DNA from: a virus
DNA: 64,000 nucleotides
Reading direction: 5' to 3' (one strand)
IMG/VR virus record: IMGVR_UViG_3300021256_000065
Shown here: positions 1 to 64,000 of the stretch, piece after piece
Numbering within the stretch: the first letter of the stretch is position 1
Layout: each line of letters begins with the position of its first letter
Program-made: the position numbers and the translations under genes
Notes under the pieces: model-generated
Told to the model about the DNA's origin: nothing
The model's input: only the letters and a program-made list of their open reading frames with translations
Databases searched by the model: none

Positions 1-1745
1 ATATAAAGAACCCCTGTGCCTATTCTATTAAGACTAGTATTAAACACTACATCTTCTGTTCTGTTATACGCCCACCCTATATTTAGAAATTCATCTTGTA
101 TTTCTTCAATAAATTTGTTGTGATATTCACTGGGTTTTTGCTTTTCATCATATACATCCGATGCTATTGATTTAAATTCATTAACCACAGATGGATGAAT
201 AGTAACGGTAGATTGGCTACGCATTATTTCATATTTTGGATTACTATTACTTATATATTCGTATCTTCCATGATACTCACGAACATAAAACAATCCTATT
301 TGCGTACAACCGTCTGGTATTGTTATAGATACATATTGGAGCTTTCCAAAACCACTTATATCTGTTGTTGGCTCCTCAATCGGCTCTAAGTCATACTCTG
401 TTACATATTCAGATGAAAGATTTACTCTACCAGGAGAATCATTTCCGTTACCATCATACATTCCGATAATTGCTGAGCTATATTGGTCAGATAATGATGT
501 CTTTTTTATAGTAAACAAACCAAAATCATATAAATTAACAATGTCTCCTGCATTAACCGGAATTAAATCACTAATTGCATAATATGTATTTCGTAACGAT
601 TCTAACGGATTTGGAGTAACATCAACTAGACCTCCATTTCCCCAATAATAATTTTGAATATTTTCGTCATCGTTGCCAACATATATTGTTCTTGTATTGT
701 TTGAAATATAAATAGCATTTGCACCAATGTTTTCTCTTGCCTGAAACTTGTTTTCATCCGTTAAAGTTTGTGCAGTATTATATCTAACTGCCCCGGTTAT
801 AGTATCCGATGGGACAACCATGCCATCACTTCCAACAATAAGTGCTTTCCCTGCATTTTCTACGCCCTGTTGTTTATCAATTTTCCCGTTTCTTGCTACC
901 GTATCTTTTGCCGTTAATACATCAACTGTTTCATGACTTATTACCGTCATTTTTTCCAGTTTTGGCTCAAACACCTTATTAATCGTAAGTCCTTGAGCAA
1001 CTGTGATATGGATTTTATAGGTTGTTGTTTCCGGTACATCAAAAACAGCACCTTCTCCGATATCTCTAAAAAGCGCACCTCCGCCAGATGCATATCTGAT
1101 TGTAAGACTATATCCATCAGATGCGGCTCCACCTGTCGGGCATCCAGTAAGCCTGTATTTTTCTCCGGCAGTAAGCGGAATTGTCAACTCAGCCGAAGAT
1201 GACCTTATTCCAAAAATGATGCCTGTGGTATGAGTATTTGTTCCGACTGCAGAAATTGTTCCGTCATTGTTTTGAGTAAATACAACACCATGGTTCGTCC
1301 AACTACCTTCGCCAAGATTAAATTCTACTGGAGTATACTCATAAATATCTTTTGTTTCTGTATCTACAACTTCGGATATCTGTTCTAAACGTTCATTTAG
1401 TTCACTGAGTTCATCCCCGGTTTTCTTCGCATCTGCTGCCGCGCCCTCCGTTGTTAAACTTGAATCTACTATTACAGCACTTCCAACAGGAGTAACATAA
1501 GTATTCAGCCAATTAGTCACATCAGTGCTAATTTCATCTCTTAAATATTGCGCTAACGCTTCATCATCAATTTTTTCATTTAACTGTGCTTGCACAGTTC
1601 CTTTAGACATATCTATATTACCTAATATATCTACTAGATTGTGAGAATCATCCCATAAAATATACTCAGCTAATGTACTTATTGGTATCTCATCTGAATA
1701 AGTACCATCATCATACTTAATTCGAATAGCTGTTAATTTATTCAT
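1..1745 (-). CDS. Tail fibre / receptor-binding protein. 5' end is at 1745; the 3' end lies beyond the window start.
   Basis: The minus-strand frame is open from 1745 to 1 with no TAA, TGA or TAG. The ATG at 1743-1745 follows an AAAGGAGAA RBS. The N-terminus MNKLTAIRIKYDDGTYSDEIPISTLAEYILWDD...AAADAKKTGDELSELNERLEQI is paralogous to the N-terminus of gene 5554..8604. It is absent from the ORF track because it has no in-window stop. Confidence 0.55.
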   Translation of the reverse strand, partial: MNKLTAIRIKYDDGTYSDEIPISTLAEYILWDDSHNLVDILGNIDMSKGTVQAQLNEKIDDEALAQYLRDEISTDVTNWLNTYVTPVGSAVIVDSSLTTEGAAADAKKTGDELSELNERLEQISEVVDTETKDIYEYTPVEFNLGEGSWTNHGVVFTQNNDGTISAVGTNTHTTGIIFGIRSSSAELTIPLTAGEKYRLTGCPTGGAASDGYSLTIRYASGGGALFRDIGEGAVFDVPETTTYKIHITVAQGLTINKVFEPKLEKMTVISHETVDVLTAKDTVARNGKIDKQQGVENAGKALIVGSDGMVVPSDTITGAVRYNTAQTLTDENKFQARENIGANAIYISNNTRTIYVGNDDENIQNYYWGNGGLVDVTPNPLESLRNTYYAISDLIPVNAGDIVNLYDFGLFTIKKTSLSDQYSSAIIGMYDGNGNDSPGRVNLSSEYVTEYDLEPIEEPTTDISGFGKLQYVSITIPDGCTQIGLFYVREYHGRYEYISNSNPKYEIMRSQSTVTIHPSVVNEFKSIASDVYDEKQKPSEYHNKFIEEIQDEFLNIGWAYNRTEDVVFNTSLNRIGTGVLY

Positions 1746-2230
1746 TGATTTCTCCTTTCTAATTTATGCTATTTAAATAATCTAATATATTCATGATTAA
1801 CACACTAACATGCGGTTTTAGTCCTTCCATTTTGAAACTATGGATTTTTTTCACAATATTGTGTGTATTGTTCAATGTCATCTAATATTTGTTCAAAATA
1901 ATCTTTACTGTGACCCACATTAGAATATAACTCATCTGAGAATCTTAAAATGCGGGTTCTTGCGGTTGTTGCTTTATCCTACTAAATAGATGCTTTTAAT
2001 TTATCTATTTTTTCATTGGTTTCTGCAACAGCTTTTAAAATATCTTTTGTAATATCTTTTTTCTAATCATTTCTTTTTATAATAAATTGTATAAAGGCAA
2101 AAATGCCGCCGCTCCCGATTAGGAGAGCAAGAATGTTGAGGATTGATATTTGCAAATATTGATCACCTCCATTAGGGCAGCCTTAAGGCTGCCCTAACAA
2201 CTTTGTTGCTATTTTATGCGGTTTAAAATA

Positions 2231-63065: not shown

Positions 63066-63216
63066 ATGATGAAAAAATTATTAATAAATATTTTAACAGA
63101 AGAATATGAATTAAATCTTTTTGAAAGCGAAAAAATTATTGAAAAATTATTTTATATTTTAGAAAATGATTTATTAAAATGGAATAAAATAGAATGTAAA
63201 TGGGAGATAATTTAAT
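63066..63216 (+). CDS. Small hypothetical protein.
   Basis: Preceded by a TGTATAAT promoter and GGAGAATGAGAATA. Overlaps the next ATG. Confidence 0.25.
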
Positions 63217-64000
63217 GAAAAGATTTGAACCTCACTCTCACTCTGAATTTTCGAATATACGATTATTAGATTGTATTAATAAAATTCCAGCTCTTATTGA
63301 TAGAGCAATAGAAATAGGTTTATGTGGAATTGCATTAACAGATCATGAATGTCTGAGCGGGCATCCCGAAGCTAATTTTTATGCTCAGGATATTTTAAAA
63401 GGTCATCCAGATTTTAAAGTAGCATTAGGTAATGAAATATATTTAACACCCAATAGAGAGATGGGCCAGAAATATTATCATTTTATTTTAATAGCAAAAA
63501 ATAAAACTGGATTTAGAGCATTAAAAGAATTATCTTCAAGAGCATGGATGAATAGTTATTGGGATCGCGGTCTTGAAAGAGTCCCAACAATTTATAATGA
63601 ACTTGAAGAAATTGTTAATAAATATCCTAATAGTTTAATTGCAACAACTGCATGTATTGGCGGACAAGTATCTTCTCAAGTTTTAAATTTAATTAAAGCT
63701 GAAAAACATGAAGATACTGCGGGAATTACTGAGGCACATAATAATATTGTAAATTTTATTTTATGGTGTAAAAAATTATTTGGAGAAGATTTTTATATTG
63801 AATGTGCACCAGGTCAATCAAGTGAACAAATTGCGGTTAATAAACGTCTTAAGGCTGTGGCCGCCGCATTTAAATGTAAAATGGTTCTTGGCTCAGATGC
63901 CCATTATCTGACAAAAGAAGATAGATTTGTTCATAAAGCATATCTTAATTCAAAAGGGGGAGAACGTGAGGTTGATGCGTTTTATGAATATGCTTATCTT
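63217..64000 (+). CDS. DNA polymerase III alpha-type PHP domain protein (partial; continues past the window end).
   Basis: MKRFEPHSHSEFSNIRLLDC…GLCGIALTDHECLSGH…SDAHYL shows PHP-domain His/Asp motifs. No stop within the window. Confidence 0.65.

What the first reader, a model, noticed from the sequence alone, without database searches (positions are those of the whole stretch)
1..64000. TAG is a sense codon throughout this phage genome
All ~45 minus-strand ORF-track fragments I could place in the late-operon reading frames end in TAG, always in the same frame as the next fragment. Examples are stops at 4226-28, 2651-53, 4955-57, 6937-39, 9167-69, 9741-43, 11216-18, 13040-42, 13292-94, 14609-11 and the nine TMP fragments. 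Independently recognisable domains run straight across TAG codons. These are the S74 intramolecular-chaperone domain, DHH motifs I-III plus DHHA1, the GIY-YIG core, the RuvC boxes and the SH3b fold. Genuine gene ends use TAA (for example 2231, 8936, 10011, 12307, 12710, 18061 and most plus-strand genes) or TGA (5554, 11105, 17835). Several of these overlap the next ATG (ATGA, TAATG), as expected for real stops. This fits a code-15-like reassignment (TAG to an amino acid via a suppressor tRNA) of the kind known from some gut phages. Here it reaches extreme density: more than 25 TAG in one fibre gene and dozens in the tape measure gene.
Basis: seen in the sequence. Interest (0 to 1): 0.8.

Follow-up and report, generated by a model that had tools for sequence, protein, structure and literature searches.

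The report
Phage reads TAG as glutamate
This rumen phage uses the stop codon TAG as an ordinary codon in its late genes, and comparisons with relatives indicate it encodes glutamate, not the glutamine reported for every other TAG-recoded phage I found.

Summary
The tape-measure gene has 85 in-frame TAG and no internal TAA or TGA in 3,120 codons.

TAG is a sense codon mainly in late, structural genes: 126 TAG in 8,599 codons. In the plus-strand replication genes there are 20 in 9,813 codons, and 23 of 30 genes have none.

The window holds no tRNA. The same genome carries a 16-tRNA cluster about 14 kb left of the window, and it includes a good tRNA(CUA).

The amino acid appears to be glutamate, not the glutamine of code 15:
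- At 197 conserved codon sites where some relatives carry TAG, the others encode Glu at 153 and Gln at 18.
- A likelihood test against standard-code relatives picks Glu. It assigned 14 of 14 control codons correctly.
- One TAG sits on the catalytic Glu of the phage's GH73 endolysin.
- The tRNA(CUA) lacks the acceptor signature shared by all the tRNA-Gln genes of the related phages.

I found no report of TAG→Glu in phages. Public protein sets translate these codons as Q. Charging by host GluRS is inferred, not shown.

The parts
18061..27423 (-). Tape-measure gene, 3,119 codons from the start codon, with 85 in-frame TAG. TAG makes up 27% of GAA+GAG+TAG.
   Evidence: Frame counts. The PhageMin_Tail domain (residues 195-399, 2e-28) spans TAG codons. 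Standard-code orthologue: L074 1416-9890.
12710..17794 (-). Tail fibre or spike gene of 1,681 aa with CBM_5_12 and a C-terminal Peptidase_S74 chaperone domain; 24 in-frame TAG.
   Evidence: Orthologue with 0 TAG: L074 9974-14059.
5554..8628 (-). Late structural gene of 1,016 aa with 4 in-frame TAG, the first at codon 19.
   Evidence: Called as one 1,016-aa product in ENA.
2231..5608 (-). Late structural gene of 1,108 aa (DUF6273) with 3 in-frame TAG at 4955, 4226 and 2651.
1742..2182 (-). Small late ORF with 6 in-frame TAG in 147 codons.
3..1763 (-). N-terminal 581 aa of a 938-aa SASA-domain fibre protein. There is no TAG in the window part and one TAG beyond the window.
8936..11659 (-). Four small late genes: 8936-9553 (1 TAG), 9540-10007 (1 TAG), 10011-10847 (0 TAG) and 11105-11659 (2 TAG).
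47910..48872 (+). GIY-YIG nuclease gene in the plus-strand block with 8 in-frame TAG (48045, 48150, 48153, 48327, 48399, 48471, 48774, 48819).
   Evidence: Relatives carry GAA or GAG at the same codons, for example codon 187: TAG in 14 and GAA in 24.
48918..49979 (+). Gene of unknown function. The TAG at 49500 alternates with GAA (22) and GAG (2) in relatives.
58110..59978 (+). DHH/DHHA1/RecJ_OB nuclease gene with 3 in-frame TAG (58293, 58908, 58995). Standard-code gene calls split it into two pieces.
39604..40404 (+). Gene with 3 in-frame TAG (39634, 39886, 40372). The last lies 10 codons before the TAA and might act as an early stop.
28124..47383 (+). Early block almost free of TAG, containing phosphoesterases, Thg1-like protein, MVP-shoulder protein, RNA ligase, kinase, RNase H, topoisomerase subunits and NAD ligase. 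It can be read with the host's standard code.
50028..57292 (+). Replication genes with no TAG after their start codons, including AAA_24, YorH-like, DnaB-like helicase and primase.

Best explanation
The window is 64 kb of a rumen siphovirus of about 134 kb, distantly related to SPbeta-like phages of Bacillota. The phage has reassigned the amber codon TAG to glutamate.

Early and replication genes are written almost entirely in the standard code, so the host's unmodified translation machinery can express them. The phage carries a cluster of 16 tRNA genes about 13-19 kb left of the window, and one of them has the anticodon CUA. Once this tRNA is made, TAG codons in late genes are read through as Glu. 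These genes include tape measure, fibres, baseplate-like proteins, terminase, portal and endolysin. TAA and TGA remain the only stops.

Shown here:
- TAG is a sense codon.
- Its use is biased to late genes.
- A tRNA(CUA) gene is present in the same genome and in recoded relatives.
- The evolutionary substitution pattern is that of Glu.

Inferred:
- The tRNA(CUA) is charged with Glu by the host GluRS. This is most plausible in a host that lacks GlnRS and makes Gln-tRNA through a non-discriminating GluRS plus GatCAB.
- Glu-tRNA(CUA) then escapes amidation because it lacks the U1-A72/G73 mark of tRNA-Gln.
- TAG use serves as a timing gate for late genes.
For: TAG is a sense codon:
- The tape-measure frame has 85 TAG, 0 internal TAA and 0 TGA in 3,120 codons. 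All reader coordinates were verified.
- Pfam domains span TAG codons.
- Relatives L074 and L075 encode the same tape-measure and fibre proteins with 0-1 TAG.

TAG encodes Glu:
- Opposite 230 TAG positions in three recoded genomes, the standard-code orthologue has E 56, D 34, Q 21, A 19 and K 17. Log-likelihoods are E -597, K -632 and Q -636.
- The same method assigns 14 of 14 control codons correctly. It separates GAG→E and CAG→Q by 34-38 log units.
- In closer relatives (blastn matches at 70% nucleotide identity or more), 634 codon sites carry TAG in at least one genome.
- At 197 of those sites, at least 5 other genomes agree 90% or more on one residue: Glu 153, Gln 18, Lys 6, Asp 6, Trp 6. 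The background of conserved sites is Glu 5.0% and Gln 3.4%.
- GAA, which is two mutations from TAG, is the commonest partner codon.
- In the GH73 endolysin of the same genome, a TAG aligns with the Glu of the conserved AQAALE(T/S)GWG motif of FlgJ. PDB entry 3k3t carries Ala at exactly that position. That this Glu is the catalytic residue is from my own knowledge of GH73 enzymes.
- In a 98%-identical relative, a TAG in NrdG aligns with the Asp of PflA's CHNRDTWD motif.

The tRNA:
- tRNA(CUA) at L247 4981-5054 scores 68 bits against Rfam tRNA and folds as a clean cloverleaf. It is on the contig that is identical to the window where they overlap.
- Recoded relatives with a tRNA(CUA) have 12.7-19.1 TAG per 1,000 late codons. 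In the three whose gene calls I checked (L247, L248, L258) there are no TAG stops.
- Relative L256 has no tRNA(CUA), 0.4 TAG per 1,000 codons, and uses TAG as a stop.
- All 5 phage tRNA-Gln(UUG) genes have (U/A)1-(A/U)72, G2-C71 and G73. None of the 5 tRNA(CUA) genes does.

Host: the helicase is 40% identical to SPbeta YorI, and the endolysin is Amidase_2 plus glucosaminidase. Both fit a Bacillota host.
Against: - There is no proteomic or biochemical evidence.
- 18 of the 197 conserved sites are Gln. In window-centred counts, Gln sites gain TAG at 0.036 per site against 0.051 for Glu. Some Gln decoding, or a Glu/Gln mixture, is therefore not excluded.
- TAG sites fit the Glu model less tightly than true GAG sites do (-2.60 against -2.17 log units per site).
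- Overall sequence similarity of the tRNA(CUA) genes to tRNA-Glu is ambiguous. Only L258's is nearest to Glu. A G·U wobble in the first two acceptor pairs is not specific to Glu (22 of 98 other tRNAs).
- GluRS normally reads the anticodon, and CUA differs from CUC at position 36.
- The host is unknown. Related contigs are binned into three unrelated phyla.
- About 7 kb of the genome was never seen, so a phage-encoded synthetase cannot be ruled out.
Confidence: 0.75

Rival explanations
1. Ordinary code 15: TAG is read as glutamine by a tRNA(CUA) charged by GlnRS, as in crAss-like, Lak and phAss-1 phages.
For: - This is the only TAG meaning reported for phages in the papers I read.
- Amber-anticodon tRNAs are known GlnRS substrates, as cited by Borges et al..
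- 18 of 197 conserved TAG sites are Gln, and some sites alternate between CAA and TAG, for example gene 51497 codon 15.
- Public pipelines already translate these genes with Q.
Against: - Conserved sites favour Glu 153 to 18, even though CAG→TAG is a single transition and GAA→TAG needs two changes.
- The likelihood is 39 log units worse than for Glu, using a method that identifies CAG and CAA as Gln correctly.
- A TAG sits on the catalytic Glu of GH73.
- The tRNA(CUA) genes lack U1-A72, G2-C71 and G73, which all five phage tRNA-Gln genes have.
Confidence: 0.07
2. Ambiguous decoding: the tRNA(CUA) is charged with Glu, part of it is converted to Gln (or it is charged by two enzymes), and TAG positions receive a Glu/Gln mixture.
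For: - Gln is enriched 2.7-fold over background among conserved TAG sites.
- TAG sites sit at more variable positions than GAG sites.
- The runners-up in the likelihood test are K and Q, not D as for true Glu codons.
Against: - The Gln excess can be explained by the one-step CAG→TAG mutation combined with tolerated Q/E exchange.
- A catalytic Glu written as TAG argues for reliable Glu insertion.
- The tRNA lacks the U1-A72 pair that GatCAB uses, according to established knowledge of GatCAB recognition. This was not tested here.
Confidence: 0.12
3. The host itself reads TAG as a sense codon and the phage simply matches its host.
For: Code-matched phages exist, for example code-25 and code-4 hosts. 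The host here is unidentified.
Against: - Early genes avoid TAG almost completely, while late genes use it at 1.5% of codons.
- The phage carries its own tRNA(CUA).
- Close relatives use TAG as a stop.
- I know of no bacterium with TAG→Glu (own knowledge).
Confidence: 0.03
4. The TAG codons are real stops: pseudogenes, an assembly artefact, or low-level programmed read-through.
For: Standard-code gene callers fragment these genes.
Against: - The tape-measure frame has 85 TAG with no TAA or TGA in 3,120 codons.
- The same pattern appears in dozens of independent assemblies from different samples.
- Domains continue across TAG codons.
- TAG positions turn over against Glu codons.
Confidence: 0.01

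Closest known systems
TAG-recoded ('alternatively coded', code 15) gut phages: crAss-like, Lak, Garnet and others, and phAss-1 (Borges et al. bioRxiv 10.1101/2021.08.26.457843; Peters et al. PMC9523058; Babkin et al. PMC10607447)
   Same: - In-frame TAG is concentrated in late, structural and lysis genes.
- Early genes are in the standard code.
- TAA and TGA are kept as stops.
- The phage encodes its own tRNA(CUA).
- No dedicated synthetase or release factor was found.
- Close relatives that use the standard code exist.
   Different: In those phages the inferred or measured amino acid is Gln. Borges et al. state that they observe only TAG→Gln and TGA→Trp in phages whose code differs from the host's. 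Here the evidence points to Glu, and the tRNA(CUA) lacks the tRNA-Gln acceptor signature. The phage lineage is also different: SPbeta-like, from rumen, with a probable Bacillota host.
Eukaryotic nuclear codes with UAG=Glu (NCBI tables 30 and 31: peritrich ciliates, Blastocrithidia); from my own knowledge
   Same: UAG is translated as glutamate.
   Different: In those codes UAA is reassigned together with UAG, through tRNA-Glu with UUA or CUA anticodons and changes to eRF1. Here TAA is the main stop codon, the system belongs to a bacteriophage, and it acts only in part of the genome.
SPbeta-like Bacillus phages (SPBc2, phi3T)
   Same: - Genome size of about 130 kb.
- DnaB-like YorI helicase (40% identity), a YorH-like protein, a DnaE-type polymerase and a very long tape-measure gene.
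   Different: SPbeta uses the standard code. There is no nucleotide-level similarity. This phage has a 16-30 gene tRNA cluster.

Membership tests
Stop-codon-recoded (TAG sense) phages | In-frame TAG in conserved genes, with full-length homologues restored when TAG is read as sense | tested here: met
   Tape measure, fibre, GIY-YIG and DHH/RecJ are restored. Standard-code orthologues are L074 and L075.
Stop-codon-recoded (TAG sense) phages | TAG is not used as a terminator, while TAA and TGA are | tested here: met
   Independently called genes on the window's own contig end in TAA (13) or TGA (2) and never in TAG. Standard-code relatives end 1 of 16 and 3 of 14 genes in TAG.
Stop-codon-recoded (TAG sense) phages | Phage-encoded suppressor tRNA with anticodon CUA | tested here: met
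   L247 4981-5054, found by ARAGORN and by Rfam at 68.3 bits. It lies outside the window but on a contig identical to the window over their overlap.
Stop-codon-recoded (TAG sense) phages | Recoding is biased to late, structural and lysis genes | tested here: met
   126 TAG in 8,599 late codons against 20 in 9,813 early codons. The major capsid and scaffold genes have none.
Genetic code 15 (TAG = Gln) | TAG positions correspond to Gln in homologues | tested here: not met
   Conserved sites: Glu 153 against Gln 18. Log-likelihood: Glu -597 against Gln -636. Controls were assigned correctly.
Genetic code 15 (TAG = Gln) | The suppressor tRNA is of tRNA-Gln type | tested here: not met
   (U/A)1-(A/U)72, G2-C71 and G73 are present in 5 of 5 phage tRNA-Gln genes and in 0 of 5 tRNA(CUA) genes. 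No isotype classifier such as tRNAscan-SE was available.
UAG = Glu codes (NCBI tables 30 and 31) | UAA is reassigned together with UAG | tested here: not met
   TAA ends most genes and never occurs inside the long ORFs. A weak tRNA(UUA) gene does exist.
Pyrrolysine decoding of UAG | tRNA-Pyl architecture and pylS/pylBCD genes | tested here: not met
   ARAGORN's 'tRNA-Pyl' label reflects only the anticodon. The tRNA is a normal cloverleaf with a 5-nt variable loop. No Pyl genes appear among the Pfam-annotated genes. The substitution pattern is Glu, not Lys-like.
Glu-tRNA charging by host GluRS without amidation (proposed mechanism) | The host lacks GlnRS, GluRS accepts the CUA anticodon, and GatCAB rejects the tRNA | not testable with these tools
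   The host is unidentified. This needs a host genome and aminoacylation assays.
SPbeta-like phages | Shared replication module and genome scale | tested here: inconclusive
   The helicase is 40% identical to YorI, there is a weak YorH Pfam hit, and a DnaE-type polymerase is present. No structural-gene or whole-proteome comparison was done.

The most novel reading that the evidence does not exclude
This would be the first natural UAG→glutamate reassignment outside eukaryotes.

A family of about 134-kb rumen phages encodes a tRNA(CUA) that the host's GluRS charges with Glu. The tRNA is neither a GlnRS substrate nor a GatCAB substrate, because it lacks the tRNA-Gln acceptor marks.

If this is right, the amino acid a phage can capture for TAG depends on how its host makes Gln-tRNA. 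Current code-15 annotation would then put Q in place of E, including at catalytic residues, across thousands of public proteins.
Probability: 0.6. Interest if true: 0.85.

Novelty: new variant of a known kind. Interest (0 to 1): 0.72.

Why it matters
Stop-codon recoding in phages is established, but the published picture is that phages capture only Gln for TAG and Trp for TGA. This has been explained by GlnRS and TrpRS being easy to hijack.

A TAG→Glu phage family would show that a third synthetase can be recruited. It would also link the choice of amino acid to the host's route to Gln-tRNA.

It has practical consequences. Gene callers that switch to table 15 restore the reading frames but write Q where the protein has E. 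The public copy of the window's own fibre protein already shows this. The endolysin's catalytic residue would be mistranslated in the same way.

The tRNA(CUA) and the GluRS that charges it would be a natural amber-suppressor pair of interest for genetic-code engineering.

The family contains recoded members, standard-code members, and one apparently intermediate member that has a tRNA(CUA) but still uses TAG stops. This makes the order of events in codon capture directly testable.

Tried and rejected
- Megablast of 48 kb of the window against GenBank phages found nothing.
- The first fibre protein has no relatives in IMG/VR.
- tRNA hunting in about 2 Mb of related loci around the helicase, polymerase, terminase and head genes found no suppressor tRNA. 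The cluster was reached only by walking left from the window through exact-protein look-ups.
- BLAST of the tRNA(CUA) against annotated phages gave only partial, uninformative hits.
- Whole-sequence similarity of tRNA(CUA) to each isotype was ambiguous. I first took a G·U wobble in the first two acceptor pairs to be Glu-specific, but it is not. I therefore rely on the absence of the Gln signature.
- Host assignment from bacterial genome bins failed. Related contigs are binned as Endomicrobiaceae, Lachnospiraceae and 'Cyanobacteria', which probably reflects mis-binning.
- A PDB search with the 48918-49979 protein gave no homologue.
- Pfam found nothing for several late proteins or for the two genes upstream of terminase.
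- I considered pyrrolysine, a host-matched code, pseudogenes and read-through, and rejected each (see rivals).
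Full report
**What is in the window.** The sequence is 31% G+C. GC skew changes sign near 28 kb. Genes left of that point are on the minus strand and are structural. Genes right of it are on the plus strand and deal with replication and nucleotide metabolism.

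Reading TAG as sense leaves the plus-strand block almost unchanged. It fuses the minus-strand fragments into a 3,120-codon tape-measure gene (18061-27423), a 1,695-codon fibre gene (12710-17794) and several others. The longest ORF rises from 836 to 3,120 aa.

In the tape-measure coding frame there are 85 TAG, no TGA and only the terminal TAA. The other two frames have 121-225 TAA and 36-223 TGA. TAG is therefore not selected against in frame, whereas TAA and TGA are completely excluded.

Pfam domains run across TAG codons:
- PhageMin_Tail in the tape measure
- CBM_5_12 and Peptidase_S74 in the fibre
- GIY-YIG, and DHH plus DHHA1 plus RecJ_OB

**Where TAG is used.** After their start codons, late genes hold 126 TAG in 8,599 codons. 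The 30 plus-strand genes hold 20 in 9,813 codons, and those 20 are confined to seven genes. The GIY-YIG nuclease has 8 and the DHH nuclease has 3. In late genes TAG (126) outnumbers GAG (86).

**Relatives.** There is no nucleotide match in GenBank phages. IMG/VR and ENA hold many relatives, mostly from metagenome projects I take to be rumen. Full contigs are 130-144 kb. The helicase is 40% identical to SPbeta YorI, which points to a Bacillota host.

Most relatives are recoded in the same way. Some are not. L074 and L075 encode a 2,825-codon tape-measure ORF with one TAG and a 1,362-codon fibre ORF with none. L256 has 0.4 TAG per 1,000 late codons and uses TAG as a stop.

**Which amino acid.** Three lines of evidence agree on glutamate.

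First, I aligned the tape-measure and fibre proteins of three recoded genomes to the standard-code orthologue L074.
- The residues opposite 230 TAG positions are E 56, D 34, Q 21, A 19 and K 17.
- Using substitution frequencies taken from the same alignments, the log-likelihood is -597 for Glu, -632 for Lys, -636 for Gln and -640 for Asp.
- As a control I treated 14 ordinary codons as unknown. All were assigned correctly, and GAG→E and CAG→Q were separated by 34-38 log units at about half the sample size.

Second, I compared homologous codons in closer relatives (blastn matches at 70% nucleotide identity or more).
- 634 sites carry TAG in at least one genome.
- At 197 of them, at least five other genomes agree 90% or more on one amino acid: Glu at 153, Gln at 18, and Lys, Asp and Trp at 6 each.
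- Among conserved sites without TAG, Glu is 5.0% and Gln 3.4%.
- Many sites contain only TAG, GAA and GAG.
- The commonest partner of TAG is GAA, which is two mutations away. CAG is one transition away yet much rarer.

Third, two aligned motifs place TAG at acidic positions.
- The endolysin of this same genome, one gene left of the window, has a TAG aligned with the Glu of the GH73 motif AQAALE(T/S)GWG. PDB entry 3k3t carries Ala at exactly that position. That this Glu is the catalytic residue is from my own knowledge of GH73 enzymes.
- A TAG in NrdG of a 98%-identical relative aligns with the Asp of PflA's CHNRDTWD motif.

Caveats:
- Gln is 2.7-fold enriched among conserved TAG sites.
- In window-centred counts, the rate at which Gln sites carry TAG in a relative (0.036) is not far below the rate for Glu sites (0.051).
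- TAG sites fit the Glu model less tightly than true GAG sites do.

One-step CAG→TAG mutation with tolerated Q/E exchange explains these features. A Glu/Gln mixture is not excluded.

**The tRNA.** The window has no tRNA. Neither did about 2 Mb of related loci.

I walked left from the window using exact-protein look-ups. This reached ENA contig ERZ12302812 NODE_417, which is identical to the window where they overlap. It also reached a cluster of 16 tRNA genes.

One of these, L247 4981-5054, has the anticodon CUA. It lies about 14.4 kb left of window position 1. It scores 68 bits against Rfam tRNA and folds as a regular cloverleaf.

Five of the six genomes sampled at this locus carry a tRNA(CUA). 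The four with 12.7-19.1 TAG per 1,000 late codons all have one (the window's own contig, L247, and relatives L248, L257 and L258). L256 lacks it and uses the standard code. L259 has a divergent tRNA(CUA) but still ends genes with TAG. It may be an intermediate or a decaying state.

All five tRNA-Gln(UUG) genes of these phages show (U/A)1-(A/U)72, G2-C71 and G73. No tRNA(CUA) does. They have G·U, C-G or G-C at pair 1-72, usually G2·U71, and A73 in three of five. L258's tRNA(CUA) has a D-arm of the tRNA-Glu type.

Whole-sequence similarity is otherwise ambiguous. I could not run an isotype classifier.

**Mechanism.** Shown:
- TAG is a sense codon.
- Its use is biased to late genes.
- A tRNA(CUA) gene is present, and across the six sampled genomes high TAG use occurs only where one is present.
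- The substitution signature is that of Glu.

Inferred: host GluRS charges the tRNA(CUA). From established knowledge, many Bacillota lack GlnRS. They make Gln-tRNA with a non-discriminating GluRS, which tolerates either C or G at anticodon position 36. GatCAB then amidates it, recognising the U1-A72 pair of tRNA-Gln. A CUA tRNA without that pair would be charged with Glu and stay Glu. Nothing here tests this step.

No synthetase or release-factor gene was seen in the roughly 127 of 134 kb inspected. Not every gene in that span was scanned.

**Comparison with what is known.** The architecture is that of the alternatively coded phages described by Borges et al., Peters et al. and Babkin et al. 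All of them report Gln. Borges et al. state that only TAG→Gln and TGA→Trp are seen in phages whose code differs from the host's.

Six full-text searches found no report of TAG→Glu in phages or bacteria. This is a limited search, not proof of absence. UAG=Glu is known in some eukaryotic nuclear codes, where UAA is reassigned as well (own knowledge). Here TAA is the main stop.

The public protein collection translates the window's fibre protein with Q at its TAG.

**Verdict.** It is probably wrong in the implied amino acid. I rate this a new variant of a known kind, with about 0.75-0.8 confidence that the residue is Glu.

Noticed in passing
window 28145-38326: A cluster that looks like a tRNA or RNA repair module. 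It contains a Thg1-like 3'-5' nucleotidyltransferase (29886-30710), an RNA ligase with a PHA02142 OB domain (35395-36663), an AAA_33 kinase (37060-37551) and three calcineurin-like phosphoesterases (28145-28894, 34314-35144, 37781-38326). It could repair or mature tRNAs, possibly the phage's own. No link to the recoding was tested.
   Followed up: partly
window 30765-33254: An 830-aa early protein with a major-vault-protein shoulder domain (7e-23) and a long C-terminal coiled coil. This is unusual in a phage.
   Followed up: no
window 57309-58106: A microbial-type poly(ADP-ribose) glycohydrolase domain (1e-25) among the replication genes. It may be a counter-defence function.
   Followed up: no
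L247 5563-5637: A second suppressor-like gene, tRNA(UUA), of ochre type (Rfam 51 bits). It is AT-rich (33% GC), has a U1·U72 mismatch and G73, and was seen only in the window's own genome. TAA is nonetheless the main stop and never occurs inside the long ORFs, so its role is unexplained. It may be a decaying paralogue.
   Followed up: partly
L247 3718-3797; L248 2567-2642: tRNAs with the Leu anticodon UAG but only 76-80 nt and no long variable arm. L248's copy is 74% identical to that genome's tRNA(CUA). Their charging identity is unclear.
   Followed up: no
L259 3142-3217 and called genes: A relative that has a divergent tRNA(CUA) with a 4-bp T-stem. It has essentially no in-frame TAG and ends 3 of 14 genes with TAG. 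It may be an intermediate or decaying stage of recoding.
   Followed up: partly
L139 3679-7997: The scaffold, major capsid and neighbouring head genes have no TAG, while adjacent tail and assembly genes have up to 9. The most highly expressed late genes appear to avoid the recoded codon.
   Followed up: partly
P0001 (public copy of window gene 3-1763 and its continuation): The public protein collection translates the TAG of this gene as Q ('GITNQQWPD'), i.e. with table 15. If TAG is Glu, proteins of this phage family are systematically mistranslated in public sets.
   Followed up: yes
L247 10001-11512: A DUF2828/DUF7788 protein of 503 aa with no TAG lies next to the tRNA cluster. It has 7,926 database relatives at E<=1e-50. 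A sub-threshold YrlA (Y RNA-like) Rfam hit overlaps the nearby tRNAs at L247 5930-6041.
   Followed up: no
L247 2096-3010: A complete sigma-70-family gene (regions 1.2 to 4) sits at the edge of the tRNA cluster and is conserved in relatives. It is a candidate regulator of the switch to late, recoded genes.
   Followed up: no
L234, L235, L236: Phage contigs of this family are deposited inside bacterial MAG bins of three unrelated phyla. One is a 139,570-bp contig in an 'Endomicrobiaceae' bin. This is probably binning contamination rather than a host signal.
   Followed up: no
L244 12029-16720; L238 3589-8801: A run of small paralogous genes (N-termini such as MTKMTYVSALDVAI...) is repeated several times. 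It is interspersed with tRNA genes in one relative (L238) but not in the contig closest to the window.
   Followed up: no
window 17780, 8570, 27340 (approximate first TAG of the fibre gene, gene 5554-8628 and the tape-measure gene): Several late genes place their first TAG very near the start: codon 5 of the fibre, codon 19 of gene 5554-8628, codon 27 of the tape measure, and codon 9 of the gene two upstream of terminase in L155. This would make translation depend on the suppressor tRNA from the outset. No statistical test was done.
   Followed up: no
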